A stretch of DNA of 64,000 nucleotides from Alcaligenaceae bacterium. GTDB lineage: Bacteria; Pseudomonadota; Gammaproteobacteria; Burkholderiales; Burkholderiaceae_B. Position numbers and translations under genes: made by a program. The DNA is taken from the NCBI GenBank assembly GCA_012727555.1, contig JAAYGT010000033.1:21921-85920 (forward strand), read 5' to 3'. Under the pieces are notes generated by a model that searched no databases, had not been told where the DNA came from, and worked only from the letters and a program-made list of their open reading frames with translations. Below, in pieces: positions 1,831 through 61,142 of the stretch. The number at the start of each line of letters is the position of its first letter. The stretch's first letter is position 1.

Positions 1831-1911
1831 CGTATAGGTAGGAATCCGGACGCACACCGAATCGTCCTGCAACGCAACGAAAAAGAACATGCAGCACGGA
1901 GACACGGCCAC

Positions 1912-2664: not shown

Positions 2665-2685
2665 CCCCCAGGAAAACAGCACCCC

Positions 2686-3879: not shown

Positions 3880-3905
3880 TGCGATTTTCTCAAGGACACT
3901 TCACC

Positions 3906-47646: not shown

Positions 47647-48456
47647 TTATCTAGACGCCGCAGGCGCTGTTTGAGTGCTGTACAAACGCGCCGGCAAAAA
47701 CCCGCCATCCACCACAATATCCTGGCCGGTAAGGTACCGCGCTCCGTCCGTCGAAAGAAAGGCGACCACCTGGGCGATATCCTCAGGAACCCCGAAATGC
47801 CCTACGGGCAAAGCAGCCAACCGGGCTGCAGCACGTTCCGGATTCTGGTAATAGGGCTCAGACAAGGGGGTGCGCACCATACCCGGACTGACTGAATTAG
47901 CGCGTATACCTTTTTCACCCCAGGCCACGGCCATCTGGCGAGTGAGACCACACATGGCCGATTTGCTTGCCCCATAGGCGCCCCCACGCGTAGGTGTCTG
48001 ATTACCGATTGAAGCAATGTTCACGATACGTCCCCACCCTTGGACAAACATCATGGGTACCAATGCCTGGGCACAGAGCAACGCCCCTTTGACGTTGACG
48101 TTGAATACACTATCCCACTCGTCCACAGAAATAGCTTCCAGAGGTGTCAGGGCTGTACGGCCTGCGTTGTTCACCAGGATATCGCAGCGCCCAAACCGTT
48201 CCCTGACCGTCTCAGCCATCTGTTCAATCGCTTCGGGCACCGTAATATCGCAGGCAATTGCTACGGCACCAACCGGCAGAACAGCATCGACAGGAACCGT
48301 ACGATCAATCATGGCAACACGTGCGCCCATCGCCAAGAACTGCTGGGCAATCGCCAGGCCCAGACCGCCAAATGCACCGGTGACAACAGCCACTCGCCCC
48401 TTGAGCGAGTCTGGGCTGAAAACAGGGGAAGGAAGCTCAGGAGTCCAAGATGTCAT
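47647..48456 (-). CDS. SDR family oxidoreductase
   Basis: 269 aa with VTGAFGGLGLAIA, NNAG and YGASKSAM motifs. Confidence 0.85.
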   Translation of the reverse strand: MTSWTPELPSPVFSPDSLKGRVAVVTGAFGGLGLAIAQQFLAMGARVAMIDRTVPVDAVLPVGAVAIACDITVPEAIEQMAETVRERFGRCDILVNNAGRTALTPLEAISVDEWDSVFNVNVKGALLCAQALVPMMFVQGWGRIVNIASIGNQTPTRGGAYGASKSAMCGLTRQMAVAWGEKGIRANSVSPGMVRTPLSEPYYQNPERAAARLAALPVGHFGVPEDIAQVVAFLSTDGARYLTGQDIVVDGGFLPARLYSTQTAPAASR

Positions 48457-48553
48457 GGTAATTCAATAAGGTAAAGTCAGGTAACACGAGGGGGACTGCA
48501 TCAGGGTAGAACAGCACACTACGGTCCGACCCGGCAAAAATACGGCTGATGTT

Positions 48554-50056
48554 TCAAGCACGCTTGAGCACAGCATGCAAAAACCGAACCACGAAGAAAA
48601 GCAACATGAGCAGCATAATGGCGAGCAAAGTTGCAGAAATCGGGCGCTCAATGAAGGTCGCAAAATCGCCTTGGGCAACAACCATCGTGCGCCGGAAGTT
48701 TTCCTCGACCATGGGGCCCAGCACAAACCCCAGCAACAGGGTCGCACCATCAAACTGCAGTGCCCTGAACAACAAGCCCAGCAGGCCAAAAATCACCAGC
48801 ACATAGATATCAGTCACGGAACTGCTGACCGAGTACACACCCACACAAACGCAGGCCACCATTACCGGGAACAACAGGTGATAGGGAATGCGCAGCAAAC
48901 GCACCCAAAGTCCCACCAAAGGCACATTCAGAATCACCAGCAATATATTGCCCACCACAAACGAGGCTACCAGCCCCCAGAAAATTTCCGGATTATTGGA
49001 AATGACAGCTGGACCTGGAATGATGCCATGCACCATCAGCACGCCCAGCATCATCGCCATCACGGCATCACCTGGTATGCCGATACTCATGGTGGGAATG
49101 AACGCCGTCTGAACCGCTGCATTATTGGCAGCCTCGGGCGCAGCAACACCCGCCAGCGCACCATGACCAAATTTTTCAGGGGTTCTGGAAACCCGTTTTT
49201 CCAGGGCATACGAAAGGAATGTGGCGATCAGACCGCCAGTTCCTGGTAATGCACCAAAAAACGAACCAATCGCCGATCCACGCAAAGTGGGCATGGTGCA
49301 CTCCCTGACCTGCGCGCGATCAGGCAACATGGAACGCAGGGTGATCCGGTTTTCCGCAACCTTGCCTTCAGGCCCGCCATGGGCCGTGGAAATGATTTCA
49401 GGCAGACCAAACAAACCGAGTGCCAGGGCGACCAGTGACAGACCGTCAAACAAAACGGGCAACCCAAAGGTGAAGCGGGCCTCACCGCTGTTCAGATCCA
49501 GCCCGATCAACCCAAGCAGAACGCCGATGCACACCATGATGAGCGACTTCAAGGGTTTACCTGAAGACAGCAAGGACGCGGACACCAGGCCGAAGGTCAT
49601 GAGCATAAAGTATTCCTGAGGCCCAAAGCTCATGGCCACATTGGCCAGCGGGATGGTCAGCACGGCAAGCAACACCGCACCAAGCATTGAACCCACGAAC
49701 GAAGCAATTGCCGTGATAAAAAGCGCCAGGCCCGCCTGACCATTACGCGCCATCGGATAGCCATCAAGCGTTGTGACCACACTGGTGACCGTACCCGGCA
49801 AATTCAGGAGAATGGAGGCCGTGGAGCCACCGTATGCTGCACCATAATAAATACCGGCCAGCATGATGATCGAGTAGGTCGGTTCGATATGAAATGTGAT
49901 CGGCATCAGTACGGCCAATGTCGCCATGGTGCCTAAACCGGGCAGAACACCTACAACTGTGCCCAGAAAAACACCAAGAAAACAATACATCAGGCCATTT
50001 AATGACAAGGCCACCGAGAAACCCAGTGCGATGTTATCCAGCAAGGATACATTCAT
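48554..50056 (-). CDS. tctA: Tripartite tricarboxylate transporter large permease TctA
   Basis: About 500 aa polytopic protein from ATG 50056, which overlaps the tctB stop (ATGA). TctA-like blocks (GVLPGLG, GAAYGGSTASILLN). Confidence 0.85.
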   Translation of the reverse strand: MNVSLLDNIALGFSVALSLNGLMYCFLGVFLGTVVGVLPGLGTMATLAVLMPITFHIEPTYSIIMLAGIYYGAAYGGSTASILLNLPGTVTSVVTTLDGYPMARNGQAGLALFITAIASFVGSMLGAVLLAVLTIPLANVAMSFGPQEYFMLMTFGLVSASLLSSGKPLKSLIMVCIGVLLGLIGLDLNSGEARFTFGLPVLFDGLSLVALALGLFGLPEIISTAHGGPEGKVAENRITLRSMLPDRAQVRECTMPTLRGSAIGSFFGALPGTGGLIATFLSYALEKRVSRTPEKFGHGALAGVAAPEAANNAAVQTAFIPTMSIGIPGDAVMAMMLGVLMVHGIIPGPAVISNNPEIFWGLVASFVVGNILLVILNVPLVGLWVRLLRIPYHLLFPVMVACVCVGVYSVSSSVTDIYVLVIFGLLGLLFRALQFDGATLLLGFVLGPMVEENFRRTMVVAQGDFATFIERPISATLLAIMLLMLLFFVVRFLHAVLKRA

Positions 50057-50514
50057 AGTGCAAACACCTTGATCGGCAGGCCAAGAACAGCCACAAACAA
50101 AATGGAACACCCAACTGCCGTTACCGCTGACAACACAACTGAACGTGCAATGTGTGCGTTCGCCGAGGCAAACGTTGACAGAAAAACGGCTGCAAAAATG
50201 GCCGGAAGCAAACCAAACCGATCAATCAGCAACGCGAACGCCATAAATGCTGCAATGATCGATACCACCGAGAAAAAACGGGGGAAGGTAGCCTTGGGGG
50301 CCACTGTTGAACTGAATAGCGTGACCCCTGCCAGCAAACAGCCCAAAACAATCAGGACGATTGCGAACATACCGGGGAAATAGCCTGGCCCCATATCACG
50401 CAAGGAACCCATGACATAACTCTGCGACTCGACCAGCACAAAAAGGCCCAGGGCGACTGCAAAACCGGCACCGGCAAGATCAGGCAGTTTTGCATGCAAA
50501 CTCTTCTCACTCAT
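50053..50514 (-). CDS. tctB: Tripartite tricarboxylate transporter small subunit TctB
   Basis: 153 aa four-helix hydrophobic protein directly upstream of tctA. Confidence 0.75.
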   Translation of the reverse strand: MSEKSLHAKLPDLAGAGFAVALGLFVLVESQSYVMGSLRDMGPGYFPGMFAIVLIVLGCLLAGVTLFSSTVAPKATFPRFFSVVSIIAAFMAFALLIDRFGLLPAIFAAVFLSTFASANAHIARSVVLSAVTAVGCSILFVAVLGLPIKVFAL

Positions 50515-50540
50515 TGTTCAGTCTCCTCTTTTTTGAATTG

Positions 50541-50558
50541 TGATCGTGCACACGATCA
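50541..50558. promoter_or_regulatory. 18-bp palindrome TGATCGTG-CA-CACGATCA
   Basis: Perfect 8-bp arms in the 61-nt gap between the CMD-family gene and tctB. This is the only sizeable gap inside the otherwise overlapping operon. Confidence 0.4.
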
Positions 50559-50575
50559 AAGTTAGTTCATCTCGC

Positions 50576-51358
50576 TCAACCCGGCGGAACACCTGCAGTC
50601 CCGGTACCCATAGGCAACCCAGAGTGATCACTCAATGCCGCAGCGCCCAGCGCCGTGCCGTGCACGGACAAATGCGCACCAAGCTGTATGACCTGGACAA
50701 TGTCTGCAACAGCACCACCTTCTTGCAAAGTTGTACGTATTTCAGTGCGCAGTGCATCAGGATTGAACCCCGTGAAACAGGCGTGTAACGCAATATGAAT
50801 CAGATGGCGCTCATACGGTGACAGACCAGCCCCAGGTGTATCAAGAGCGATAAACTCAAGCACAACCCGCACATACCCAGGATCAAACCGACCAACGACA
50901 CGCAACTGCTCACACAAAGCCACGGGCAACGTCGCCAGGTGTGCCGCCAGACCATCAGGCCAGGCCGCATCCGCTGGCACTGAGTCAAGTCCAGCCTCTT
51001 CGGCCAGGATATTCAACCCCTGATACACCGACGACAGCCCCTGTACGGCCACACAATGCAGCACACCCAGTATGTCGGCAGGACTCGCCCCCGCCTCGAA
51101 CGCTTTGGCCAGATGTGTCTTGAGACCCGGACCATATAAATGGGTTGATGAAGCATCCAGAGCCACATAGACCAGTTCGACCATGCGTGCCGACAATGAA
51201 CCTGTGCGGGCAGGGTAGCCGGCATAATTTGCATACGCCTGCAAAAACTGCGGGTGTTGCGCCAGTATGACCTCGGTCCAGGGGCGCCAGTAACCACGCT
51301 CACGGATAAAACAGGCCTTGATAGCCTCTTGCTCAGGCGTCAAATGGGCCATCATCAT
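50576..51358 (-). CDS. Carboxymuconolactone decarboxylase (AhpD-like) family protein, two-domain
   Basis: 260 aa. Two AhpD/CMD-like helical halves (LSARMVELVYVALDASSTHLY... and LSPYERHLIHIALHACF...). The family call is moderate. Confidence 0.55.
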   Translation of the reverse strand: MMMAHLTPEQEAIKACFIRERGYWRPWTEVILAQHPQFLQAYANYAGYPARTGSLSARMVELVYVALDASSTHLYGPGLKTHLAKAFEAGASPADILGVLHCVAVQGLSSVYQGLNILAEEAGLDSVPADAAWPDGLAAHLATLPVALCEQLRVVGRFDPGYVRVVLEFIALDTPGAGLSPYERHLIHIALHACFTGFNPDALRTEIRTTLQEGGAVADIVQVIQLGAHLSVHGTALGAAALSDHSGLPMGTGTAGVPPG

Positions 51359-52581
51359 GCTCCTTGTTCAGTTCGCAGCACAAGCACTTGCCCTGTCAGG
51401 AACTGTGCACGTGCCCCGGCCACGTAATTAATCAACAAAGCGGTATCGTCCAGCGGATACTCTGGCGGCAGGCAGAGGCCGTTCACGCGGAACCCAAGCG
51501 GCCCGAGCTCGCAGGCCAGTGTGGCCACCATCATGCGAGCAGCGGCGTAATCCCCTGCAGCCTGTGCACCGGCAGAAACAGGTCCCTGCGGAAGAATCAG
51601 TGTCAGACTCGACGGTGCCAGCGCATGCTGCACAAACTGCCGGGCCGCTGCATGCAGAGCGGCAACCAGCTCACCTGATGCACACTGCCAGACGGAAAAG
51701 TCCACAACAGCCTGATAACAACCCGCATCGGACCCAGTATCCTGCGCCTGCAGACGGGCCTCCAGTTCAAGGGGCACAGTGCCGCATAGCCGCAGCCGTG
51801 TCGAAGCCGACAAAGAAACCGGGGGAACCTGAGCCGGTGAGAACGCAGCACTGCCGCCAAAAGCGCCCGAACCGCCGTCCACACGCAACGGCTCAGGCCC
51901 AAGGAGTCGAGCAGGCGCACTGGCCAGAAACAACAGAGCATGGGCCAGCTCTTCCGGTTCCGCCATGCGTCCCAACGGAATTTTTGCAACGGCACGTACA
52001 GGATCGAGCCGTTTTTCATCAATCAGGTGCTGCACTAACTCCGTTCGAACAAAACCCGGTGCCAGAACGGATACACACCGCTCGGGCCACTCAGATGCCA
52101 GTGCACGGGATTGCGCAATGAGCCCGGCTTTGGAGGCACTGTAAAGACCACGCCACGGAATGGCCTGAAAAGCGGCACCTGAAGCCACATTCACGATATG
52201 AGCCCGGGGCGCCAGACATGGCTGCAGGACGTGCAGGACAGCCAGTGGAACCTGCAGATTCAGTGTCATCAGACGCTGACACTCCGCCCAGGCCATGTCA
52301 GCCAGGCGCAGACCTCGCGTATCAGAGATACCCGCATTATTGATGACGGCATCCAGCGGTTGTCTGAAATCAGCCAGTGCCGCCAAACCCGCCGGATCCA
52401 GAAGGTCCAGGCACAAAGCCATATGCCCTTGCCCATCGGGATCAGGTAGCGCATCCGCCAGGGCAACAACCCGCGCCGTATCACGATCCAGCAAAACGCA
52501 ACGCCAGCCCTGCGATGCAAACAGCAGGGCGGCTGCACGGCCAATCCCGGCAGCGGCACCCGTGATCAGAACAGTGGCCAC
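51355..52581 (-). CDS. SDR oxidoreductase fused to a degenerate second SDR-like half
   Basis: The first ~250 residues form a canonical SDR (TGAAAGIGRAAA, NNAG, YSASKAGL). The C-terminal ~150 aa keep only late SDR blocks (YAAARMMV, GFRVNGLCLP, FLTGQVLVL) and have no Gly-rich dinucleotide motif. Confidence 0.7.
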   Translation of the reverse strand: MATVLITGAAAGIGRAAALLFASQGWRCVLLDRDTARVVALADALPDPDGQGHMALCLDLLDPAGLAALADFRQPLDAVINNAGISDTRGLRLADMAWAECQRLMTLNLQVPLAVLHVLQPCLAPRAHIVNVASGAAFQAIPWRGLYSASKAGLIAQSRALASEWPERCVSVLAPGFVRTELVQHLIDEKRLDPVRAVAKIPLGRMAEPEELAHALLFLASAPARLLGPEPLRVDGGSGAFGGSAAFSPAQVPPVSLSASTRLRLCGTVPLELEARLQAQDTGSDAGCYQAVVDFSVWQCASGELVAALHAAARQFVQHALAPSSLTLILPQGPVSAGAQAAGDYAAARMMVATLACELGPLGFRVNGLCLPPEYPLDDTALLINYVAGARAQFLTGQVLVLRTEQGA

Positions 52582-52599
52582 AGTCGTCCCCGTGCGTAA

Positions 52600-53358
52600 T
52601 CAGATATTGGTGAATGTGACGCCGCCGTCTACCACCAACGACTGGGCGGTGATGAACCCGGCGTCATCACTGACCAGAAAACAAATGCCGCGAGCGATAT
52701 CCTGCACGTTGCCGAGCCGTCCCAGAGGGGTACGCGCAGCGCGTAAGGCATCCCGCTCGGCATTGCGGTTACGCTGAGTGCCTTCCGTGGGCACTGCAGA
52801 CGGGCAAACAGCATTGACACGAATACGACGAGCCCCCAGTTCGGCAGCAGCGGCACGCGTGATGCCCAAAATACCTGCTTTAATACCGGAATACACCACG
52901 GAATTCAGCGTGGAACGCAACGCAGCCGTGGACGCCACATTCACGATGGCACCACCACGCTCGGGATCCATGGCCTCGGCGGCAGCCTGAATGCCCCAGA
53001 TCACTGCCTTGAAACCAACATCCAGCATACGATCCACGGTTTCAGGCTGGATATCAGGCACCGCTTGATAACGGACCCAGGCAGCGTTGTTGACCAGCGC
53101 ATCAAAACGGCCACCCACCTGGGCCGCCTGGCGAACAGCGGCTTGAATACCTTCGCGGGTAGAAATATTCTGGACCACGCCAAAGGCTTTGCCACCCTGA
53201 TCCGTGATTTCACGAACAGCGGCCTCAACAAACTCTTCCTTGAGGTCATTGACACCGACCAAAGCACCACGCGCAGCCATCTGGCGTGCAGCCTCGCGAC
53301 CAATGCCATTGCCAGCGCCTGTGATCAGGATTACACGACCTTCCATATCCTTATGCAT
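52600..53358 (-). CDS. SDR family oxidoreductase
   Basis: ITGAGNGIGREAA, NNAAW and YSGIKAGI motifs. ATG 53358 is preferred, overlapping the upstream ACAD stop by 8 nt. Confidence 0.85.
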   Translation of the reverse strand: MHKDMEGRVILITGAGNGIGREAARQMAARGALVGVNDLKEEFVEAAVREITDQGGKAFGVVQNISTREGIQAAVRQAAQVGGRFDALVNNAAWVRYQAVPDIQPETVDRMLDVGFKAVIWGIQAAAEAMDPERGGAIVNVASTAALRSTLNSVVYSGIKAGILGITRAAAAELGARRIRVNAVCPSAVPTEGTQRNRNAERDALRAARTPLGRLGNVQDIARGICFLVSDDAGFITAQSLVVDGGVTFTNI

Positions 53359-54331
53359 GTGCTGCCTCCTTGGCAGATTCAATAAATGTCTGGCCGGCAA
53401 TCTGCAATGCCGTCGAGCCTTTCAGAGCCGTATTCAGACGCTGGGCATCACGCAGCGACCAGTGCAATGGCACTTCCCAGGTAAAACCCATGCCGCCGTT
53501 CAGGTGAATGGCACGCTCGATGGCAAAAATTGCGTTATGCACAGCCCCGGTCCAGGCCACCTGGGCATCACGCTCGCAACCGAATTCATCGCTGGTCAAA
53601 ACCCTTTGAACGGCAGCAATCGAAACCTCATTCAGCAATTTCATACGCGCCAGCGTATGACGCACCGCCTGCTTGGCCGTCAATGGGCGACCGAACTGGA
53701 CACGCGTTGCGAGGTACTGCGCTGTAAACTCCAGCGCACCTTGGGCAGCTCCGTTCAGGAAGGCTGCTGTAAGTACGTAAGCATCCCGCCGTAAAACAGC
53801 ATACTGTTCGGCGGTCAGACGCGCCTTCACGACAGCGGATTGCAAACCAACGGTGTATCGGGGTACATCGGGATCAAGCACATCCTCGGTTTCCAGCGAC
53901 ACAGAAGAGCGCTCAACCAACACTGCACGTTCACCGTCAGGCACCAGGATCCAGTCAGCCCGGTCCGCATAGGCCGCATGAGAAGCCAGGCAGCGGCTCC
54001 AGTCACCTTGCCAGGCGATAACCACAACACGGCGTCCACCGACCAGTTCGGCCGCTTCGGGCGTACCCGCCAGCGCCTTGGCCACAAGCAGTTGTTCCAC
54101 CAGGGGAAAGCGCAAACGCAATTTGCCCGCCTGCTGTGCAATCGGTACGGCAAAGGCCAGGCTCAGATTCAAGCCACCATCGCTTTCGGGAACACACACA
54201 CCAACCAGACCGGCCTGGGCCAATATGGACGCCATCGTGGAAAAATCGTGCGACTGCGCATCGGCAATCGCTGCCGCAGCGGCTTCGGCAAATTCCTCGG
54301 GCCGCAGACTTTCATCGTGGGAACTCATCAT
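53351..54331 (-). CDS. Acyl-CoA dehydrogenase family protein (short, 326 aa)
   Basis: ACAD C-terminal blocks (RPLTAKQAVRHTLARM, LNGGMGFTWEVPLHWSLRDAQ). It is shorter than typical ACADs of about 380 aa. Its start overlaps the upstream ACAD stop (ATGA). Confidence 0.75.
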   Translation of the reverse strand: MMSSHDESLRPEEFAEAAAAAIADAQSHDFSTMASILAQAGLVGVCVPESDGGLNLSLAFAVPIAQQAGKLRLRFPLVEQLLVAKALAGTPEAAELVGGRRVVVIAWQGDWSRCLASHAAYADRADWILVPDGERAVLVERSSVSLETEDVLDPDVPRYTVGLQSAVVKARLTAEQYAVLRRDAYVLTAAFLNGAAQGALEFTAQYLATRVQFGRPLTAKQAVRHTLARMKLLNEVSIAAVQRVLTSDEFGCERDAQVAWTGAVHNAIFAIERAIHLNGGMGFTWEVPLHWSLRDAQRLNTALKGSTALQIAGQTFIESAKEAAHA

Positions 54332-55536
54332 TTCTGGACGTCCATGGGCAGTTTGAGAATACGCTGGGCAATAATGTCGAGCTGAACTTCAGTCACGCCT
54401 GCATAAATGGTTTCAGCACGGGCAAACAGGTAGGCGGTTGTGAAATGCTTCCGGGCACGGCGGGCCAGTGGGCTCGAACAATCGTGCACACGAGAAACAA
54501 TGTCCATTGCAAGCCCCGCAAAGGCTTGATGACATTCTGACCAGTACAGTTTGTTCAATGAACCCAGGGCACCAACTGGCCGATCACGCATCAGGTGATC
54601 CACCACGGCCTCGATCAACCCTTTCAGGCCGTCGATTTCGGCAGCAATCTGCCCAATACGACGCTGGTAATAGCCATCGTCCAATACCTTGGCCAGTTCG
54701 GCATCCGAAAGGCATGCACGCACCAGCTGGCGCAGTTCGCACTCGAAACGCCACGGGCGATACATACGATTGGTGGCACGCTCGATCGACAACACACGAA
54801 TTGCCGCATCCCAGCCTTCATCAGGCGCACCCAGTCGGGCGCTGTCAGGCACAATGACATTGTCAAAGAAGACCTCGGCAAACGATTCCTTGCCATCGAT
54901 GGACTTGATCGGCACAACACGAATGCCGGGTGTATCCATAGGCACGGCAAACATCAACAAGCCACGATGTTTGTCGGCCACTGTTCCAGTGCGTGTCAAC
55001 AACAGGCAATAGTGTGCTTTTGCAGCCCCGCTGGTCCAGATTTTCTGGCCATTGATACGCCACACATCGCCTTCCTGAGTCGCCTTGGTACGCAATCCGG
55101 CAAGGTCAGACCCTGCTCCAGGTTCGGAAAACCCCTGGCACCAGTAGTTTTCAATCGCCAGAATGGCTGGCAAAAAAGTGCGTTTCTGTTCTTCGGTACC
55201 CACCGCCATGATGATGGGACCCGCCAGTTCCTTCCCGATCGAGCTGACACTCTCGGGCATGGGCAGCGAACCGATTTCCTTGTTCACGACCAAATGCTCA
55301 CGCAACGACAGCCCATAGCCACCGTATTCTTTTGGCCAGGTCATGCCGGCCAGCCCCGCACGGTACATTGCCGCTTCCCACGCACTGCTTTCCTGCAGTG
55401 TGGGTGTACGGTAGTTCAGGCTGTCCGAACGCATGTAGTCGGGTAAATTGGCAGCCAGCCATTGGCGGGCATGGCGACGATAGGCATCGCGCCCGGACGC
55501 AGGGTCCGGAATCACCACAGTGGTATCAAACGACAT
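54328..55536 (-). CDS. Acyl-CoA dehydrogenase family protein
   Basis: 402 aa. ACAD blocks YWCQGFSEPGAGSD, WTSGA and a C-terminal IYAGVTEVQLDIIA, which corresponds to the usual IYEGT..IQ position with Ala in place of Glu. Confidence 0.85.
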   Translation of the reverse strand: MSFDTTVVIPDPASGRDAYRRHARQWLAANLPDYMRSDSLNYRTPTLQESSAWEAAMYRAGLAGMTWPKEYGGYGLSLREHLVVNKEIGSLPMPESVSSIGKELAGPIIMAVGTEEQKRTFLPAILAIENYWCQGFSEPGAGSDLAGLRTKATQEGDVWRINGQKIWTSGAAKAHYCLLLTRTGTVADKHRGLLMFAVPMDTPGIRVVPIKSIDGKESFAEVFFDNVIVPDSARLGAPDEGWDAAIRVLSIERATNRMYRPWRFECELRQLVRACLSDAELAKVLDDGYYQRRIGQIAAEIDGLKGLIEAVVDHLMRDRPVGALGSLNKLYWSECHQAFAGLAMDIVSRVHDCSSPLARRARKHFTTAYLFARAETIYAGVTEVQLDIIAQRILKLPMDVQK

Positions 55537-57686
55537 CAGTGAGCTCCTGGAGTCAAAGCGAATTCATTCACGGGCACCATCAGTGCATCAAGCACCACAA
55601 CACCCTGGCCCAGGGGGCGCACCAGGACCGGATTCATATCGATTTCAGCGACATTGGCGGCATGGCGGCAGGCGAACTCTGAAAGACGGACCAGTGTCTG
55701 AGCGGCAGCCTGGATATCGGCCTTGGGCTGACCACGAGCCCCATCCAGAATGGGGAACATGCGCAATGACCGGATCATGCGCAGCGCGTCATCCTGGCTC
55801 ACGGGTGCAACCTGTACCGCAATATCTTTGAGCACTTCGGCATGAATACCGCCCATACCCACCATGACCACCGGGCCAAAAACCGGATCGCGGGAAATAC
55901 CCATGATCAGTTCAACACCGCCCTTGGCCATCGGCGTAACCAGAACACCCTCGATGCGAGCGTGTGGCACCTTGCGGGCTACATTGGCCATGATCTGTTC
56001 ATATGCCTGCTGCACAGCCTGGGCCGTTTCCAGATTCAGCAATACGCCACCCACTTCGGTTTTATGGGCGATATCAGGCGACACAATCTTGAGCACCACG
56101 GGCAGCCCAAGCTGTACGGCCTGCTCAGCAGCCTCATCGGCAGAACGCACAATCGCTTCCTGCAAAACGGAAACACCCGCGTGAGCCAACACACGTTTGG
56201 CCACAACCTCATTACCAAACGCAGCTGCGTCCAGAGGCATACGCGGACCATCGTACGCAGGAGCCGCATCCAGGGCTGTAAGTTGCCCCAGCGCCACCAG
56301 GCTCGCAAGGCCTTTTGCAGCTGAGTCGATTGAAGCGAAAACAGGAATACCCAGCGCGTTGATTTCAGCCACGGCATCGGCCGGGCCGGCACTGATGATC
56401 GCCAGCAGGCGATCGGGGCGGCTTGCCCGCACTTTGGCCAGGGCTTCCATGTAAACGCCCCGCAAACGGCTGTTGTAAAGCGACAGGGACAAGAACAACA
56501 ACGTGGCATCTGTCCGGGGTTCTTCGACCAAAGCTGACAAAATACCGTGCAAAATGTCAGGGCGGCTGGACATCTGGGCCGAAGCATCCACCGGATTATT
56601 AGTACCTGCCAACGGCAAGACAGCCTGAATGCGAGCTTTGGTCTCAACACTGAGCTCGGGCAGAATGAGCCCAGCCCGCGTTGTGGCATCGGCCATCATG
56701 ATGCCAAAACCACCCGAAGCCGCCACCAGAGTCACACGAGGCCCTTGGGGCAAACGGCTTGTGCCCAGCAAAGACACGGAATGACCAATCTCCAGCAGCT
56801 CTTCAATAGAGTGCACACGCAGGGCACCATAGCGCCGGAACACAGCGTCAATCACGTTATCCGCACCGGCCAGCGCACCCGTATGCGACGCGGCGGCAGC
56901 CTGGCCGCTTTCCGTGGAACCGATCTTGATGACAACCACCGGTTTGCGATTGTGTCGTGCCCTGTCAAGAGCCCAGGTCAGACGCCCTGCATCACGGCAG
57001 GTTTCCATACAGCACAAAATGACTTGTGTCGCCTCATCATCGGCCAATGCTGCGATACCATCGGCGACATCCACATCCGCTTCATTACCGGTTGCGATGA
57101 AACGGCTGACCCCAAGACCGCGCCGGGCAATATTCTGCATGACAAAGCTGCCAATATTGCCCGACTGGGAAACAATACCCACGTTGCCGGCCGGGGGCAT
57201 GCTTTGTTCGAGTACGATGGTAAACGAACCCACGACACCATCCGCAACGCTGACCACACCCAAACAGTTAGGCCCCAGCAAGCGCATCGTGTGCGCACGC
57301 GCAATACGGACCAATTCCGCCTGACGGGCAGCCCCCTCTTCACCCGACTCGGCAAAACCGGACGACAACACGATCACAGCACGGACACCTTTGTCGGCAC
57401 ACTGCTGCATCGCCTGTACGGCATGTTCGGCCGGCACGGCAAGAATCGCCATATCAGGAGCCGAGGGCAGATCATCAATACGGGCATAGGCTGGCAAGCC
57501 CTGTATTGTGCCTCCTTTGGGATTAACGGGGTACACAGCACCCTGATAACCATATTTGCGCAAGAACCAGACAGGACGACCACCGATTTTGGTTTGATCG
57601 TCGCTGGCTCCGACAACAGCAATAGAGCGGGCCTTGAACAAGGCATCAAGCCCGGCCCCAGGTTGTTGAACAGGCTGACTCACCAT
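55536..57686 (-). CDS. ADP-forming acyl-CoA synthetase (acetate--CoA ligase family; CoA-binding + ATP-grasp)
   Basis: 716 aa. N-terminal CoA-binding domain ARSIAVVGASDDQTKIGGRPV, a succinyl-CoA-synthetase-like flavodoxin domain and a C-terminal ATP-grasp region. Confidence 0.85.
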   Translation of the reverse strand: MVSQPVQQPGAGLDALFKARSIAVVGASDDQTKIGGRPVWFLRKYGYQGAVYPVNPKGGTIQGLPAYARIDDLPSAPDMAILAVPAEHAVQAMQQCADKGVRAVIVLSSGFAESGEEGAARQAELVRIARAHTMRLLGPNCLGVVSVADGVVGSFTIVLEQSMPPAGNVGIVSQSGNIGSFVMQNIARRGLGVSRFIATGNEADVDVADGIAALADDEATQVILCCMETCRDAGRLTWALDRARHNRKPVVVIKIGSTESGQAAAASHTGALAGADNVIDAVFRRYGALRVHSIEELLEIGHSVSLLGTSRLPQGPRVTLVAASGGFGIMMADATTRAGLILPELSVETKARIQAVLPLAGTNNPVDASAQMSSRPDILHGILSALVEEPRTDATLLFLSLSLYNSRLRGVYMEALAKVRASRPDRLLAIISAGPADAVAEINALGIPVFASIDSAAKGLASLVALGQLTALDAAPAYDGPRMPLDAAAFGNEVVAKRVLAHAGVSVLQEAIVRSADEAAEQAVQLGLPVVLKIVSPDIAHKTEVGGVLLNLETAQAVQQAYEQIMANVARKVPHARIEGVLVTPMAKGGVELIMGISRDPVFGPVVMVGMGGIHAEVLKDIAVQVAPVSQDDALRMIRSLRMFPILDGARGQPKADIQAAAQTLVRLSEFACRHAANVAEIDMNPVLVRPLGQGVVVLDALMVPVNEFALTPGAH

Positions 57687-57689
57687 GAT

Positions 57690-58460
57690 TCAACGCCCCT
57701 TGAACACAGGCTGACGCTTTTCAAGAAAGGCCAGACGGGCTTCGCGGGCGTCTTCCGTACGTGCCAGTGTCATGGTGAATTCTTGCTCGAAACGGTAGGC
57801 ATCGCGCTGTGGCATGACATCGACCATATTGGCGGCGCGCTTGGCGTACATGGTGGCCAATGGTGCCTTCGAAGCAATTTCACGCGCCAGTTCCATGGCG
57901 ACAGGCAACAACTGCTCGCGTGGCAGAACATCTTCCAGTACATTGCGACGCAACAAATCATGGGCTGTCAGGCGCTGCCCGGTATAGAACATGCGACGCA
58001 ACGTAGAACGCCCGAACAGGGTGCGCAGCATTGACGCGCCACCCGCAAGACCCACATTGATTTCAGGCATACCGAATGTGGCGTTTTCAGAGGCGTACAT
58101 AATGTCGCAGGCGGCCATCAAGCCCAGTCCGGCACCCAATGCTGTGCCATTGACGGCAGCAATAACGGGTTTTGCACACTCACGAATGGCATTGCCGGTT
58201 TCACGCGTGATACGGTTATGTTCAAGAAAATCACCGGGAATGTCAGCATTGGGCCGGTCTTTCAGGTCGGCACCTGCACAAAACACATCGCCTGCACCGG
58301 TCAGCACGGCACAACGAATGTCCTCGCGCTCGGAAATTTCATCAAACGCAGCGACCATCTGGCGGCGCATGTCCCGGCTCAGCGCATTGACCGGCTTGCG
58401 GTCCATGGTCACAAGTGCAACGTAATCAGCGACTTCTATTCTTACGACTTTGTCTGTCAT
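57690..58460 (-). CDS. Enoyl-CoA hydratase/isomerase (crotonase family)
   Basis: About 256 aa from ATG 58460 (AGGAAAGGA RBS). Motifs VLTGAGDVFCAGADLKD and GTALGAGLGLMAACD. The longer ORF-track start lacks an RBS. Confidence 0.85.
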   Translation of the reverse strand: MTDKVVRIEVADYVALVTMDRKPVNALSRDMRRQMVAAFDEISEREDIRCAVLTGAGDVFCAGADLKDRPNADIPGDFLEHNRITRETGNAIRECAKPVIAAVNGTALGAGLGLMAACDIMYASENATFGMPEINVGLAGGASMLRTLFGRSTLRRMFYTGQRLTAHDLLRRNVLEDVLPREQLLPVAMELAREIASKAPLATMYAKRAANMVDVMPQRDAYRFEQEFTMTLARTEDAREARLAFLEKRQPVFKGR

Positions 58461-59041
58461 GTCCTTTCCTTGGGCAGTGGGGTGTCGGCGCGCAACAACG
58501 CGATAGAGCGAAAACACAGTCGGACTAGACTGTGCCGATGCGAACGGACGGACCGAGGCGTCTTGTCTGTGCAAGCTCTGGGCCAACGGGCCTGTACGGT
58601 TGTACGAATGAATGTGACAGGCACTCCGGACGATGTTTTATGAGCGCGTCCGCTGCCTGTGACCCGCTCTTGATACGTGGTGCGTGAGCCGGCATGAGGT
58701 GGGGATTCTAATGTCAATTTTTTGAACGGACACCTTCGTTTTCACGCAGGCGGGTAGTCTGACAGGTGTCATAAAACCAACTCCCGGATGTTTAAGCGAT
58801 TAGATAAAGCCCTGATTTTTTTGATTTTTATCAATTATTTTCGGAATCAAAAAAGCGGCTTATCCGGCTCGCTACAGCGAAGTAGTTCAAACAGTTCTGC
58901 ACTATTCATCAAGAATGGCAAGGTATTCGCTCGGGTATAGTCTGATCCAGATCAAGAAACAGATGCACCAAAAGCGGTGCATTCTTAACCCGTACCGGGA
59001 CATTACCCATTAACAACAGAAAATCAGGAGAGACAGCAGTC

Positions 59042-60028
59042 ATGCGTCTGTTTTCACGCCGTCACTTCATTGGCCAAGCGGCCGCTTTGGCACTTGCAGG
59101 TGCCTTTACCCTGCCCGCAATGGCAACCGAACTCAAAACGGGGCGCCCCATCAGCATCGTGGTGCCTTACGGTTCGGGCGGCACCTACGATACGTTTTCC
59201 AGAATCCTGGCAAAGGGCATGAGCGATTACCTCAAGCATCCTGTCATTGTCGAAAACAAACCCGGTGCCAACGGTGTAATCGGCGCAACCTACGTGGCCC
59301 AGGCCGCGCCCGATGGCCACACCCTGCTGATGGGTGGTACCGGCCCGGTATCCCTGAATATCATGCTGCGCAAGTCGCTACGATACAACTTCGACAGTTT
59401 TGATTCCGTGTCGCTACTATTCGATGGTCCGTTGTCGATTGCCGTCCCCACCAAACTGGGTTTCAAGAGCCTGCAAGACGTCATCGATCACTCGAAAAAA
59501 ACAGGTACACCTGTGAACTATGCAACGCTCGGACCAGGCAGCGTCACGCATCTTTATGGCCTTTTACTGGGTGATACGCTGGGTATCAAAACAGAACCCG
59601 TGGCCTACAAGGGCGAGGCACCTTCGTTCATTGATTTCATCGCCGGGCTGACAACACTGTCGTTTTCCAACCCCAACTCACTGAATGAATACGTGAAATC
59701 GGGCGAAGTGGATATTCTTGCGTTGAGCACACCTGAACGTGTCCCGTCGTTCCCCAACATTCCCACAATCGGTGAGCTGGGGTATCCCCAGCTGGTGTCC
59801 TCATTCTGGGGCTCAATGCATGCCCCAAAAGGAACACCACCCGATCTGCTGAAAAAACTGTCTGACGCCACGATGTACGCAGCCAAGCAGCCTGAATTCG
59901 TTGACATGCTCACCAAAGGCGGGCTGCGCCCCCTGGGTGAAAGCCCTGAACGCCTGGATGCCCAAATGGCCTCTGACCGCGAAGTCTGGGGCAAGATCAT
60001 CAAAGACAACAACATTGTGCTTGATTAA
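59042..60028 (+). CDS. Bug family (TctC-like) substrate-binding protein, tandem paralog 1
   Basis: 328 aa with a Tat-like RRHF signal and Bug blocks PISIVVPYGSGGTYD and NKPGANGVIGA. AGGAGA RBS. Confidence 0.9.
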   Translation: MRLFSRRHFIGQAAALALAGAFTLPAMATELKTGRPISIVVPYGSGGTYDTFSRILAKGMSDYLKHPVIVENKPGANGVIGATYVAQAAPDGHTLLMGGTGPVSLNIMLRKSLRYNFDSFDSVSLLFDGPLSIAVPTKLGFKSLQDVIDHSKKTGTPVNYATLGPGSVTHLYGLLLGDTLGIKTEPVAYKGEAPSFIDFIAGLTTLSFSNPNSLNEYVKSGEVDILALSTPERVPSFPNIPTIGELGYPQLVSSFWGSMHAPKGTPPDLLKKLSDATMYAAKQPEFVDMLTKGGLRPLGESPERLDAQMASDREVWGKIIKDNNIVLD

Positions 60029-61128: not shown

Positions 61129-61142
61129 CAGGAGACATGACC

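What the first reader, a model, noticed from the sequence alone, without database searches (positions are those of the whole stretch)
47647..58460. Ten-gene minus-strand acyl-CoA operon combining an ADP-forming CoA ligase, paired ACADs, three SDRs, a CMD-family protein and tctBA
From ATG 58460 the genes run ECH, ADP-forming acyl-CoA synthetase, ACAD, short ACAD, SDR, SDR-fusion, CMD-family protein, tctB, tctA, SDR. The junctions are 3-nt gap, 1-nt overlap, 4-nt overlap, 8-nt overlap, 18-nt gap, 4-nt overlap, 61-nt gap, 4-nt overlap and 97-nt gap. Activation by an NDP-forming ligase rather than an AMP-forming one is unusual in a beta-oxidation-like set. The set has two ACADs, one hydratase and three dehydrogenases, plus an AhpD/CMD-fold enzyme and a dedicated TTT membrane unit. 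It faces three Bug receptors and a lactonase-like gene. This looks like a self-contained pathway for an unidentified carboxylic acid (alicyclic, branched or lactone-forming) that I cannot assign.
Basis: inference. Interest (0 to 1): 0.6.

Follow-up and report, generated by a model that had tools for sequence, protein, structure and literature searches.

The report
Conserved orphan alicyclic-acid catabolic gene cluster
The ten genes are real and are part of a larger, uncharacterised gene cluster found in over a hundred genomes of soil, water and host-associated bacteria, which most likely imports a bulky or ring-shaped carboxylic acid and degrades it through oxygen insertion, lactone opening and CoA-linked oxidation.

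Summary
In detail: all ten minus-strand genes, their domain families and all nine junctions are as described. The LysR gene runs off the window end. It is divergently paired with a luciferase-like monooxygenase (LLM) and a flavin reductase. The LLM lies next to the cluster in 15 of 15 other genomes tested, at 68-87% identity. Of 80 loci holding a relative of the CMD protein, 57 keep the collinear core ECH-ACS-ACAD(large)-ACAD(small)-SDR-SDRfusion-CMD. These loci come from Beta- and Alphaproteobacteria. The tctBA genes and the last SDR change position or are absent. Gene fusions link SDRfusion+CMD (Sulfitobacter) and the two ACAD subunits (Paraburkholderia). The crotonase lacks one of the two hydratase glutamates in all 73 orthologs. 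Variant loci add a CoA-transferase, a 3-oxoadipyl-CoA thiolase, ETF, ADH/ALDH or a type I BVMO. No characterised ortholog or publication was found. My best reading, at moderate confidence, is TTT uptake of an alicyclic or bulky carboxylate, CoA activation, heteromeric ACAD desaturation, Baeyer-Villiger-type oxygenation, lactone processing by CMD and the SMP30 lactonase, and a dicarboxylyl-CoA end product. The substrate is unknown, and expression data could not be obtained.

The parts
47647..48456 (-). SDR3, a classical short-chain dehydrogenase (269 aa). It is the last gene, lying after a 97-nt gap.
   Evidence: Pfam adh_short_C2 206 bits. TGxxxGxG and YGASK motifs are seen in the sequence. 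Orthologs at 53-56% identity sit next to the LLM genes in Variovorax, Ramlibacter and Ottowia, so SDR3 is a conserved member whose position varies.
48554..50056 (-). tctA, the large TTT membrane subunit (500 aa from the ATG at 50056).
   Evidence: Pfam TctA 505 bits. It is 75-80% identical to the tctA that follows CMD in Gemmobacter, Falsigemmobacter, Seohaeicola and Nitratireductor. No close (>=60% identical) tctA was found in the other surveyed loci.
50053..50514 (-). tctB, the small TTT membrane subunit (153 aa).
   Evidence: Pfam TctB 51 bits. Its stop overlaps the tctA start by 4 nt.
50541..50558 (.). Perfect palindrome TGATCGTG-TG-CACGATCA in the 61-nt CMD-tctB spacer. It may be an operator or the seam where tctBA was added.
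   Evidence: Sequence read. In the Gemmobacter locus CMD and tctB overlap with no spacer.
50576..51358 (-). Double-domain CMD/AhpD-fold protein (260 aa).
   Evidence: Pfam CMD 34.9 bits. It falls far below the PcaC equivalog cut-off (22.6 vs 155.7). The AF2 model has pLDDT 84.8, and its best fold match is 2q0t, followed by AhpD. There are 423 homologs at E<=0.001, the best at about 55-60% identity. Invariant residues include D68, H73, H82, C194, H229 and H233, and there is no CxxC motif. It is fused to the SDR-fusion gene in Sulfitobacter W074. A 36% homolog lies next to an SGL gene and near a type I BVMO in Novosphingobium RL4.
51355..52581 (-). SDR-fusion (408 aa): a complete N-terminal SDR plus a roughly 150-aa degenerate SDR-like tail. 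Its stop overlaps the CMD start by 4 nt.
   Evidence: Pfam adh_short covers residues 3-237 only. The best NCBIfam match is PRK06484, a double-SDR family (207 bits, below the 713 cut-off). It is adjacent to CMD in 73 of 80 loci.
52600..53358 (-). SDR1 (252 aa), the presumed hydroxyacyl(-CoA) dehydrogenase of the CoA module.
   Evidence: Pfam adh_short_C2 188 bits. Orthologs are 73-84% identical.
53351..54331 (-). ACAD small (beta-type) subunit (326 aa).
   Evidence: Only the C-terminal ACAD domain is detected. The best NCBIfam match is IpdE2. The best PDB match is Tcur3481, the partner of Tcur3483. The large and small parts are fused into one 765-aa ACAD in Paraburkholderia unamae.
54328..55536 (-). 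ACAD large (alpha-type, catalytic) subunit (402 aa).
   Evidence: All three ACAD domains are present. PimC-large scores 217 bits, below the 624 cut-off. The best PDB matches are 4x28_A (ChsE4) and 6wy8/6wy9 (Tcur3483). E252 aligns with ChsE4 E247.
55536..57686 (-). Fused NDP(ADP)-forming acyl-CoA synthetase (716 aa).
   Evidence: Pfam CoA_binding, Succ_CoA_lig and ATP-grasp_5. The best PDB matches are the ADP-forming 4-hydroxybutyrate-CoA ligase 8wzu (356 bits), the 3-hydroxypropionate-CoA ligase (331 bits) and the DMSP lyase 7cm9 (245 bits). No equivalog cut-off is reached.
57690..58460 (-). Crotonase-fold protein (256 aa), the first gene. It has only one of the two catalytic glutamates.
   Evidence: Pfam ECH_1 176 bits. 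The NCBIfam subfamily PRK06495 is met (390 vs 296). The first catalytic Glu of hydratases is Gly113 here, with G in 69 and A in 4 of 73 orthologs. E133 is invariant. It is the most conserved operon gene, at 80-88% identity.
58461..59041 (.). 581-bp divergent control region. It carries the conserved element GTTCTGCA (TGCAGAAC on the other strand) at 58894-58901.
   Evidence: GCAGAACA occurs in 39 of 50 orthologous intergenic regions upstream of ECH, within a longer conserved block, typically 110-225 bp before the ECH start. The simple sigma-70 scan found nothing.
59042..60028 (+). TctC/Bug receptor paralog 1 (328 aa, twin-arginine signal).
   Evidence: Pfam TctC 175 bits. It is 62-64% identical to paralogs 2 and 3.
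60139..61128 (+). TctC/Bug receptor paralog 2 (329 aa).
   Evidence: Pfam TctC 194 bits. Its 3' end shares a 53-nt identical tract with paralog 1.
61137..62114 (+). TctC/Bug receptor paralog 3 (325 aa), the paralog conserved with the cluster.
   Evidence: Pfam TctC 193 bits. Orthologs at 63-68% identity sit beside the cluster in Gemmobacter, Falsigemmobacter, Verticiella and Bordetella pseudohinzii. No liganded PDB relative is close.
62197..63117 (+). SMP30/gluconolactonase-family lactonase (306 aa), predicted cytoplasmic.
   Evidence: Pfam SGL 212 bits. The best PDB match is 7plb, an Smp-30/Cgr1 family protein. It has no signal peptide, and E/N/N/D metal-ligand motifs are present on inspection. 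An ortholog lies within 10 kb of CMD in 56 of 80 loci.
63092..64000 (-). LysR-family regulator. It is 319 aa in full and runs past the window end to the equivalent of 64051. Beyond it, divergently transcribed, lie an LLM monooxygenase (353 aa) and a flavin reductase (261 aa).
   Evidence: Pfam HTH_1 and LysR_substrate. The contig extension L087 shows LysR at 1013-1972(-), LLM at 2081-3142(+) and Fre at 3154-3939(+). LysR orthologs at 57-68% identity occur in 59 of 80 loci. The LLM lies beside or close to the cluster in 15 of 15 genomes.

Best explanation
The ten genes are the window's share of a roughly 17-gene catabolic locus. It comprises LLM monooxygenase + flavin reductase / LysR / SMP30 lactonase + three TctC receptors / crotonase - ADP-forming acyl-CoA synthetase - heteromeric ACAD - SDR1 - SDR-fusion - CMD - TctBA - SDR3. 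The locus is patchily distributed and probably horizontally acquired.

Proposed mechanism, with shown and inferred steps marked:
1. A carboxylic acid is bound by TctC3-type receptors and imported by TctBA. The families are shown; the ligand is unknown.
2. The NDP-forming synthetase makes the CoA thioester. The family is shown; the substrate is inferred.
3. The 402-aa and 326-aa ACAD proteins act as one alpha/beta heteromeric dehydrogenase, a type known from bulky steroid-CoA substrates. It introduces the 2,3-double bond. This is inferred from homology and from a gene fusion.
4. The single-Glu crotonase and SDR1 process the enoyl-CoA. The reaction may be hydration plus oxidation, isomerisation, or hydratase/lyase-type cleavage. 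This is inferred.
5. An SDR-generated ring or chain ketone is oxygenated in a Baeyer-Villiger-type reaction by the FMNH2-dependent LLM, which is supplied by the flavin reductase. The resulting, possibly carboxylated, lactone is decarboxylated or isomerised by the CMD protein working with the SDR-fusion. The SMP30 lactonase then hydrolyses it, in analogy to PcaC/PcaD. This is inferred from conserved gene association.
6. The hydroxy- or dicarboxylyl product is finished by generic beta-oxidation and a 3-oxoadipyl-CoA-type thiolase encoded elsewhere in this genome.

The most likely substrate class is an alicyclic (terpenoid-, naphthenic- or cyclohexane/cyclopentane-type) or otherwise bulky carboxylate. 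The exact compound is unknown.
For: - Gene families.
- Synteny: 57 of 80 loci from Burkholderiales and Alphaproteobacteria keep the seven-gene core collinear.
- LLM: it lies beside or close to the cluster in 15 of 15 genomes at 68-87% identity, sometimes duplicated. In Advenella, LLM and Fre are in the same string as ECH...CMD.
- Fusions: SDR-fusion+CMD form one 658-aa ORF in Sulfitobacter W074. The large and small ACAD parts form one 765-aa protein in P. unamae.
- ACAD relatives: the closest structures are ChsE4 and Tcur3483/Tcur3481, and E252 aligns with ChsE4 E247.
- Accessory genes in variants point to lactone, then omega-hydroxy acid, then dicarboxylate beta-oxidation. W074 has a CoA-transferase, FadB-like protein, ACAD, pcaF-annotated thiolase and ETF. 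P. unamae has Zn-ADH, ALDH and an AMP-ligase. Pseudosulfitobacter has a type I BVMO-like protein, a second SGL, a second ACS and an SDR next door.
- An independent distant variant in Novosphingobium RL4 has CMD-SGL adjacent to an ACAD, a type I BVMO (FMO-like Pfam), a ligase and a thiolase.
- LLM-type BVMOs in catabolism are documented for camphor (PMC6352141) and progesterone (PMC13707411).
- A shared operator-like element occurs upstream of ECH in 39 of 50 loci and in the window.
- A 67%-identical PcaF-like thiolase lies elsewhere in the genome.
Against: - No biochemical or genetic data exist for any ortholog, and no paper was found.
- The LLM is only distantly related to the diketocamphane monooxygenases (39 bits) and is closer to LuxA-type proteins. 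Hydroxylation or aldehyde oxidation are therefore equally possible chemistries.
- The Advenella loci show no SGL within 10 kb.
- The Ottowia variant lacks the whole CoA module, so two semi-independent modules may act on different intermediates or even on different substrates.
- The CMD function is unassigned: there is no CxxC, no PcaC-level score, and the only close structure has no known function.
- The order of steps is conjecture.
- Co-transcription is untested.
Confidence: 0.5

Rival explanations
1. This is a plain beta-oxidation-like pathway for a branched or dicarboxylic aliphatic acid, with no ring and no Baeyer-Villiger step. ACS, ACAD, crotonase and SDR1 perform one modified beta-oxidation round. 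The lactonase opens an exogenous lactone that is the true growth substrate. The LLM hydroxylates or oxidises an aldehyde, and the CMD protein decarboxylates a beta-keto acid.
For: The large ACAD subunit's best NCBIfam match is the pimeloyl-CoA dehydrogenase large subunit (217 bits). TTT systems are known for di- and tricarboxylates such as adipate and terephthalate (PDB relatives). Variants carry a 3-oxoadipyl-CoA thiolase and a CoA-transferase. The LLM is nearer to LuxA-type aldehyde monooxygenases than to the DKCMOs.
Against: The recurrent association with type I BVMO-like genes in two independent variants is not explained by this reading. Nor is the steroid-type heteromeric ACAD, or the conserved pairing of lactonase, CMD and monooxygenase. 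PimC scores far below its cut-off.
Confidence: 0.25
2. The locus degrades a polycyclic steroid- or terpenoid-derived acid, such as a HIP-like bile-acid or sterol ring fragment or a resin acid. It would be functionally analogous to the actinobacterial Chs/Ipd enzymes.
For: The nearest characterised relatives of the ACAD pair and the crotonase come from steroid catabolism: ChsE4 (4x28), Tcur3483/3481 (6wy8/9), IpdE2 and EchA19. The LLM homolog in NGR234 sits with a P450, an NTF2 protein and a double SDR. LLM-type BVMO activity acts on progesterone in Caenibius (PMC13707411).
Against: No equivalog cut-off is reached (IpdE2 58 vs 450; EchA19 193 vs 400). No further steroid-catabolic gene families were seen in the window or in the loci annotated here. 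The hosts include small-genome freshwater bacteria. This rival is a special case of the best explanation rather than a true alternative.
Confidence: 0.1
3. The locus scavenges sulfur or removes a heteroatom. LLM plus flavin reductase would act as a desulfonating or dealkylating monooxygenase of the SsuD/SfnG type on a sulfonated or ether-linked carboxylate, and the CoA module would consume the carbon skeleton.
For: LLM plus reductase pairs are typical of sulfonate monooxygenases. There are weak NCBIfam hits to SfnG (61 bits) and SsuD (42 bits). A TauE/SafE exporter lies 5 kb further on, and a sulfatase lies next to the Hydrogenophaga locus.
Against: The scores are far below the cut-offs (383 and 518). 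The neighbouring sulfur genes are not conserved with the cluster. The regulator is not Cbl/CysB-like, its best match being YafC. No sulfonate-specific uptake genes such as ssu or tau were seen in the locus.
Confidence: 0.05

Closest known systems
Camphor degradation pathway of Pseudomonas putida ATCC 17453 (CamD, CamE25/CamE36 + flavin reductase, CamF1F2, CamG), ending in 3,4,4-trimethylpimelyl-CoA
   Same: A dehydrogenase makes a ring ketone. An FMNH2-dependent luciferase-like two-component monooxygenase with a separate flavin reductase inserts oxygen to give a lactone. The ring-opened acid is activated to a CoA ester, and a substituted pimelyl-type CoA ester enters beta-oxidation (PMC6352141, PMC4097962).
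   Different: The LLM here is only remotely similar to 3,6-DKCMO (39 bits). There is no P450. The camphor lactones open spontaneously, whereas this locus has a dedicated SMP30 lactonase. CamF is recorded as AMP-forming (PMC4097962), whereas this ligase is of the NDP-forming family. The camphor pathway as described in those reviews includes no CMD protein, heteromeric ACAD or TTT transporter.
Cyclohexanol / cyclohexylacetate routes to adipate (chn-type BVMO pathway; Arthrobacter CA1 side-chain removal followed by cyclohexanone oxidation). This comparison rests on my own knowledge.
   Same: The logic is side-chain CoA chemistry, then a ketone, a BVMO, a lactone hydrolase, an omega-hydroxy acid, ADH/ALDH, a dicarboxylate and a 3-oxoadipyl-CoA thiolase. 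Variant loci carry exactly these accessory genes.
   Different: Those pathways use type I BVMOs and alpha/beta-hydrolase lactonases. None of them uses an LLM, an SMP30 lactonase, a CMD protein or an ADP-forming ligase.
Alpha2beta2 acyl-CoA dehydrogenases of actinobacterial steroid catabolism (ChsE4-ChsE5, PDB 4x28; IpdE1-IpdE2 orthologs Tcur3483/Tcur3481, PDB 6wy8)
   Same: These are the best structural relatives of both ACAD genes. The genes are adjacent and overlapping. The large subunit keeps the Glu that aligns with ChsE4 E247. The small subunit is degenerate. The two are fused in one lineage.
   Different: The similarity scores are modest (142 bits for the large subunit against ChsE4, 64 bits for the small subunit against Tcur3481). 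The hosts are Proteobacteria without the steroid gene sets. Oligomeric state and substrate are untested.
Protocatechuate branch of the 3-oxoadipate pathway (PcaC carboxymuconolactone decarboxylase + PcaD enol-lactone hydrolase + PcaIJ + PcaF)
   Same: A CMD-fold enzyme is paired with a lactone hydrolase. In variants they are followed by a CoA-transferase and a 3-oxoadipyl-CoA thiolase.
   Different: The CMD protein here is a 260-aa double-domain form that fails the PcaC model (22.6 vs 155.7). The hydrolase is a beta-propeller SMP30 protein, not an alpha/beta hydrolase. No ring-cleavage dioxygenase is present.
NDP-forming acyl-CoA synthetase superfamily members with solved structures (4-hydroxybutyrate-CoA ligase 8wzu, 3-hydroxypropionate-CoA ligase 9y43, DMSP lyase 7cm9)
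   Same: The fused domain set is the same, and the match to 8wzu covers the full length at 356 bits.
   Different: All NCBIfam equivalog cut-offs are missed by a factor of about three. The genomic context is entirely different, so substrate specificity cannot be transferred.

Membership tests
NDP(ADP)-forming acyl-CoA synthetase (ACD) superfamily | Domain set CoA_binding + Succ_CoA_lig (flavodoxin-like) + ATP-grasp_5 | tested here: met
   Pfam scores of 93.8, 156.8 and 244.2 bits, all above the cut-offs. Full-length match to 8wzu at 356 bits.
NDP(ADP)-forming acyl-CoA synthetase (ACD) superfamily | ADP (not AMP) as the product, and a phosphohistidine intermediate | not testable with these tools
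   An SHTGALAG loop with His is present in the sequence. Its role is inferred from family knowledge only.
Characterised ACD specificities (acetate, 3-hydroxypropionate, 4-hydroxybutyrate ligases) | Score above the NCBIfam equivalog cut-off | tested here: not met
   Scores of 456, 395 and 406 bits against cut-offs of 1200-1300.
Heteromeric alpha2beta2 acyl-CoA dehydrogenases (ChsE/IpdE type) | Two adjacent ACAD genes, one complete with a catalytic base and one degenerate | tested here: met
   The genes overlap by 4 nt. The 402-aa protein has all three domains and E252 aligned to ChsE4 E247. The 326-aa protein has only the C-terminal domain. The two are fused as a 765-aa protein in P. unamae.
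Heteromeric alpha2beta2 acyl-CoA dehydrogenases (ChsE/IpdE type) | Heterotetramer with one FAD per heterodimer | not testable with these tools
   This requires co-purification and flavin stoichiometry.
Pimeloyl-CoA dehydrogenase PimC/PimD | Equivalog-level score | tested here: not met
   PimC_large scores 217 vs 624. PimD_small scores 26.5 vs 653.
Canonical enoyl-CoA hydratase (crotonase) | Crotonase fold | tested here: met
   ECH_1 scores 176 bits. The PRK06495 subfamily scores 390 vs 296.
Canonical enoyl-CoA hydratase (crotonase) | Both catalytic glutamates, the equivalents of E144 and E164 in rat enoyl-CoA hydratase (numbering from my own knowledge) | tested here: not met
   The first position is G113 (G in 69 and A in 4 of 73 orthologs). 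The second, E133, is invariant. The protein is therefore not filed as a proven hydratase.
Classical SDR | TGxxxGxG cofactor motif and a YxxxK active site | tested here: met
   SDR1, SDR3 and the N-terminal half of the SDR-fusion carry both motifs. The C-terminal ~150 aa of the fusion gives no separate adh_short match (Pfam covers residues 3-237 only) and, on reading the sequence, lacks the Gly motif.
CMD / AhpD fold | Pfam CMD above the gathering score, and an all-helical AhpD-like fold | tested here: met
   CMD scores 34.9 vs 23. The AF2 model matches 2q0t (E 1e-10) and AhpD.
AhpD alkylhydroperoxidase | CxxC redox motif | tested here: not met
   There is a single invariant Cys194 in the ALHACFT block and no second Cys.
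4-carboxymuconolactone decarboxylase PcaC | Equivalog-level score | tested here: not met
   TIGR02425 scores 22.6 vs 155.7, and only for the C-terminal half.
Tripartite tricarboxylate transporter (TTT) | TctA + TctB + a TctC-family periplasmic receptor | tested here: met
   Pfam TctA 505, TctB 51 and three TctC at 175-194 bits. The receptors carry twin-arginine signals.
SMP30/gluconolactonase/LRE lactonases | SGL beta-propeller domain with metal-ligand residues | tested here: met
   SGL scores 212 bits. The best PDB match is 7plb. E/N/N/D motifs were seen on inspection. No substrate-level family is matched, with 0 NCBIfam hits.
Two-component (type II) Baeyer-Villiger monooxygenases of the LLM class | Luciferase-like TIM-barrel oxygenase with a separate flavin reductase | tested here: met
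   Bac_luciferase scores 220 bits, with an adjacent Flavin_Reduct gene at 101 bits.
Two-component (type II) Baeyer-Villiger monooxygenases of the LLM class | Close relationship to a proven BVMO, or demonstrated lactone formation | tested here: inconclusive
   3,6-DKCMO scores only 39 bits, and LuxA-type proteins score 94-125 bits. The activity is untested.

The most novel reading that the evidence does not exclude
The locus encodes a previously undescribed, widely distributed route for mineralising carboxylated alicyclic compounds, such as terpenoid or naphthenic acids and carboxyl-rich alicyclic organic matter. In this route a single-Glu crotonase acts as a hydratase/lyase or isomerase. A LuxA-like two-component monooxygenase performs the ring-opening oxygen insertion. 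A new SDR-coupled double-CMD enzyme, together with an SMP30 lactonase, processes the carboxy-lactone. This would give the CMD/AhpD fold a second catabolic decarboxylase or isomerase role outside the 3-oxoadipate pathway.
Probability: 0.2. Interest if true: 0.75.

Novelty: new variant of a known kind. Interest (0 to 1): 0.5.

Why it matters
If the proposed logic holds, this is an unstudied catabolic module present in many environmental and opportunistic Proteobacteria, including Variovorax, Achromobacter, Bordetella, Advenella, Hydrogenophaga, Paraburkholderia, Gemmobacter and Sulfitobacter plasmids. It would be relevant to the turnover of alicyclic and terpenoid acids and naphthenic-acid pollutants.

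It would also assign functions to several large 'family protein' groups that currently have none. These are the fused bacterial NDP-forming acyl-CoA synthetases, the 250-aa double-CMD proteins, the PRK06495 crotonases, non-actinobacterial heteromeric ACADs and a highly conserved LLM clade.

The survey gives clear experimental handles: tractable strains, a conserved LysR and operator, and one conserved receptor.

Tried and rejected
- Literature: eight full-text searches found no description of the cluster. The y4v gene-name search returned only noise.
- NCBIfam: no equivalog cut-off was reached by any enzyme. Only the PRK06495 (crotonase) and PRK07231 (SDR) subfamily models passed, and neither assigns a substrate.
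- Solved structures: the hits are family-level only, and the closest CMD structure, 2q0t, has no known function.
- CamF hypothesis: I tested the idea that the two-subunit CamF1F2 of the camphor pathway is an ADP-forming ligase. A review lists it as EC 6.2.1.38 with AMP and diphosphate, and the primary paper is not held, so I dropped the idea.
- CATAAAAC motif: it is shared by the LysR-LLM and ECH-TctC spacers but is only weakly enriched, with 5 observed vs 1.2 expected. I did not pursue it. The TGCAGAAC element is the better candidate.
- Promoter and terminator scan: uninformative.
- Earlier scan notes: searches by words and by LLM sequence returned nothing. The search with the ECH sequence returned only a note on the adjacent control region of this window.
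- The thiolase locus elsewhere in the genome shows no dca-like neighbours among my query set.

Full report
**Observation.** The junctions, in order, are a 3-nt gap, overlaps of 1, 4 and 8 nt, an 18-nt gap, a 4-nt overlap, a 61-nt gap, a 4-nt overlap and a 97-nt gap. Pfam confirms each family above its curated cut-off:
- a crotonase (ECH_1);
- a fused NDP-forming acyl-CoA synthetase (CoA_binding, Succ_CoA_lig, ATP-grasp_5);
- a complete ACAD of 402 aa;
- a 326-aa protein with only the C-terminal ACAD domain;
- an SDR;
- a 408-aa SDR with an extra tail;
- a CMD-family protein;
- TctB and TctA;
- a third SDR.

On the divergent side there are three TctC receptors, an SMP30/SGL lactonase and a LysR gene. 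The receptors are 62-66% identical to each other and carry twin-arginine signals. No NCBIfam equivalog cut-off is reached by any enzyme, so none can be filed under a characterised specificity.

**The unit is larger than the window.** The LysR ORF is cut by the window end. The contig continues for 8.9 kb. There the full 319-aa LysR is divergently paired with a 353-aa luciferase-like monooxygenase (LLM) and a 261-aa flavin reductase. This LLM is the best conserved protein of the whole system. In 15 of 15 genomes reached through related loci, a 68-87% identical copy lies beside or close to the cluster, and some genomes have two tandem copies. In Advenella, LLM and the reductase are in the same gene string as ECH...CMD. 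In Variovorax, Ramlibacter and Ottowia the LLM genes are followed by an ortholog of the window's last SDR at 53-56% identity. That SDR therefore belongs to the system even though its position varies.

**Conservation survey.** The CMD protein has 423 homologs at E<=0.001 in the large protein collection, the best at about 55-60% identity. A pattern scan of one genome per species found 126 loci, of which the best 80 were kept. tblastn with the window's proteins gave the following results.
- 57 of 80 loci carry the seven genes ECH-ACS-ACADlarge-ACADsmall-SDR1-SDRfusion-CMD on one strand, in this order, within 9.5 kb.
- Identities are ECH 80-88%, ACAD-large 73-80%, SDR1 73-84%, ACS 59-71%, CMD 49-58%, ACAD-small 42-59% and SDR-fusion 40-50%.
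- LysR is present in 59 loci and the lactonase in 56.
- A close tctBA pair (tctA 75-80% identical) accompanies the cluster only in the window and in Rhodobacterales and Nitratireductor.
- Hosts span Burkholderiales and Alphaproteobacteria. The Burkholderiales include Variovorax, Achromobacter, Bordetella, Advenella, Verticiella, Hydrogenophaga, Ramlibacter, Ottowia, Paraburkholderia and Cupriavidus gilardii. The Alphaproteobacteria include Gemmobacter, Falsigemmobacter, Seohaeicola, Nitratireductor and Sulfitobacter plasmids.

In the window's own lineage the cluster is rare. CMD is found in 2 of 41 relatives and is absent from the congener. An ECH ortholog at E<=1e-90 is found in only 6 of 301 genomes of the order. 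This patchiness suggests horizontal acquisition. The slightly lower G+C of the last 16 kb fits that reading.

**Variants that inform function.**
- *Sulfitobacter sp. W074 plasmid*. The order is SGL / LysR / LLM-Fre-CoA transferase-FadB-like-ACAD-3-oxoadipyl-CoA thiolase-TetR-ECH-ACS-ACADlarge-ACADsmall-SDR1-[SDRfusion+CMD as one 658-aa ORF]-TctB-TctA-ETFbeta-ETFalpha-SDR3 / TctC. The fusion ties SDR-fusion and CMD to one step or to successive steps. The added genes form a complete dicarboxylyl-CoA beta-oxidation set.
- *Paraburkholderia unamae*. A more divergent version has LLM, Fre, a porin, a Zn-ADH, an ALDH and a CoA-transferase on one side. On the other side it has an AMP-ligase, SDR-fusion, CMD, SDR3, ECH, a 765-aa ACAD with two C-terminal domains (the large and small subunits fused), ACS, SGL and SDR1.
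- *Ottowia*. It keeps only LLM, TctC, SDR3, LysR, SGL, SDR-fusion and CMD. The system therefore consists of an oxygenase/lactone module and a CoA module.
- *Falsigemmobacter*. It lacks ACS but has the CoA-transferase.
- *Pseudosulfitobacter plasmid*. It lacks CMD. Next to the cluster it has a type I BVMO-like flavoprotein with GxGxxG and BVMO-type motifs, a reductase, an NTF2 protein, a second ACS, a second SGL and an SDR.
- *Novosphingobium RL4*. A 36% CMD homolog is directly followed by an SGL homolog. Nearby lie an ACAD, a type I BVMO (FMO-like Pfam, 61% identical to the Pseudosulfitobacter one), an AMP-ligase and a thiolase.

The association of CMD, an SMP30 lactonase, a Baeyer-Villiger-type monooxygenase and CoA enzymes thus recurs with two unrelated monooxygenase classes. 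This is my main argument for lactone chemistry.

**Individual proteins.**
- *ACAD pair.* The two proteins look like one heteromeric enzyme. Their best structural relatives are ChsE4 (4x28) and the Tcur3483/Tcur3481 pair (6wy8/6wy9). E252 of the large subunit aligns with ChsE4 E247, which I recall as the catalytic base. The small subunit is degenerate. The two are fused in one lineage.
- *Crotonase.* It has Gly at the position of the first catalytic glutamate of hydratases, with G in 69 and A in 4 of 73 orthologs. It keeps the second glutamate, E133, in all 73. It should therefore not be assumed to be a plain hydratase. From family knowledge, single-Glu crotonases include isomerases and the hydratase/lyase HCHL.
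- *CMD protein.* It folds as a double AhpD/CMD domain (pLDDT 84.8). Its closest match is the function-less structure 2q0t. It has no CxxC motif and fails the PcaC model.
- *Lactonase.* It has no signal peptide, and the family's metal-ligand motifs are visible in the sequence.
- *Ligase.* It matches the ADP-forming 4-hydroxybutyrate-CoA ligase over its full length (356 bits) and the DMSP lyase 7cm9. Fused homologs occur on 322 plasmids, so the family is common in proteobacterial accessory genomes.
- *LLM.* It is nearer to LuxA-type proteins (94-125 bits) than to 3,6-diketocamphane monooxygenase (39 bits).
- *Thiolase.* The genome encodes a 67% identical PcaF-like thiolase and five further thiolase homologs on other contigs.

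**Regulation.** Upstream of ECH, 39 of 50 orthologous intergenic regions contain GCAGAACA inside a longer conserved block (for example CTTCATTTTTTGCAGAACAC), usually 110-225 bp before the ECH start. The window has GTTCTGCA at 58894-58901 in its 581-bp divergent spacer. This is a plausible site for the conserved LysR, but binding is untested. The 61-nt CMD-tctB spacer holds a perfect 8+2+8 palindrome. In the Gemmobacter locus this spacer does not exist. The simple promoter and terminator scans were uninformative.

**Interpretation.** I favour the following mechanism at confidence 0.5. TTT imports an alicyclic or otherwise bulky carboxylate. The ADP-forming ligase activates it to a CoA ester. 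The heteromeric ACAD desaturates it. The single-Glu crotonase and SDR1 process the enoyl-CoA. The LLM and its reductase oxygenate an SDR-generated ketone in a Baeyer-Villiger-type reaction. SDR-fusion/CMD and the SMP30 lactonase then process the lactone, in analogy to PcaC/PcaD. Finally, generic enzymes carry out dicarboxylyl-CoA beta-oxidation.

What is shown:
- the protein families;
- the synteny;
- the gene fusions;
- the residue patterns.

What is inferred:
- the substrate class;
- the order of steps;
- every catalytic assignment.

The rivals are a non-ring dicarboxylate or branched-acid route (0.25), a steroid- or terpenoid-fragment route (0.1, really a special case of the best explanation), and sulfonate or heteroatom removal (0.05). 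The closest known logic is the camphor pathway (PMC6352141, PMC4097962) and the cyclohexanol/cyclohexylacetate routes. LLM-type BVMO activity in a catabolic cluster is also reported for progesterone in Caenibius (PMC13707411). The locus is not a member of any of these systems.

**Verdict.** This is a real, strongly conserved, uncharacterised catabolic locus. It is a new variant of the monooxygenase-lactonase-beta-oxidation kind and is of moderate interest (0.5). Orphan catabolic clusters are common in these bacteria. This one stands out for its unusual combination of enzyme families, its two gene fusions and its breadth of distribution, which make it a good target for pathway discovery.

Noticed in passing
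L087:2081-3939 (contig beyond the window end; window-equivalent 64160-66018): A luciferase-like monooxygenase and a flavin reductase are divergently transcribed from the LysR gene. The LLM is 80-87% identical in most cluster-bearing genomes tested, across two proteobacterial classes. The reductase has an unassigned 113-aa N-terminal extension with no Pfam hit.
   Followed up: yes
window 59972-60024 and 61072-61124: The 3' ends of TctC paralogs 1 and 2 share a 53-nt identical tract, while the rest of the two genes is only about 68% identical at DNA level. This looks like gene conversion.
   Followed up: partly
L092 (Sinorhizobium fredii NGR234 pNGR234a, record 141701-146474): A 64% identical LLM homolog forms a string P450 - NTF2 - 548-aa double SDR - LLM between dctA/nifQ and nifHDK on the symbiosis plasmid. 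About 100 rhizobial plasmids carry such an LLM, whose function is unknown to me.
   Followed up: partly
window 45614-47644 (+) and 47647 (-): A bacteriophytochrome-GGDEF gene preceded by a heme oxygenase ends 2 nt from the stop codon of SDR3, in convergent orientation. The neighbourhood appears unrelated to the catabolic locus.
   Followed up: no
L087:3936-8203: The next cluster on the contig is an M20 peptidase, an N-formylglutamate amidohydrolase-family protein, another TctC receptor and a second LysR. It is probably a separate TTT-linked amide or amino-acid-derivative module. A TauE/SafE exporter and a type I restriction-modification HsdM gene follow.
   Followed up: no
L093:16028-24000 (Pseudosulfitobacter pseudonitzschiae plasmid): A compact string of SDR - substrate-binding protein - SGL lactonase - second NDP-forming ACS - NTF2 - flavin reductase - type I BVMO-like protein lies beside the main cluster. 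The BVMO fingerprint reads FKGRILRAQKWP, with Arg where His is usual.
   Followed up: partly
window 58635-58642, 58770-58777 and L087:1981-1988: The octamer CATAAAAC occurs twice in the ECH-TctC spacer and once in the LysR-LLM spacer. The window holds 5 copies against 1.2 expected. This is weak evidence for a second shared site.
   Followed up: partly
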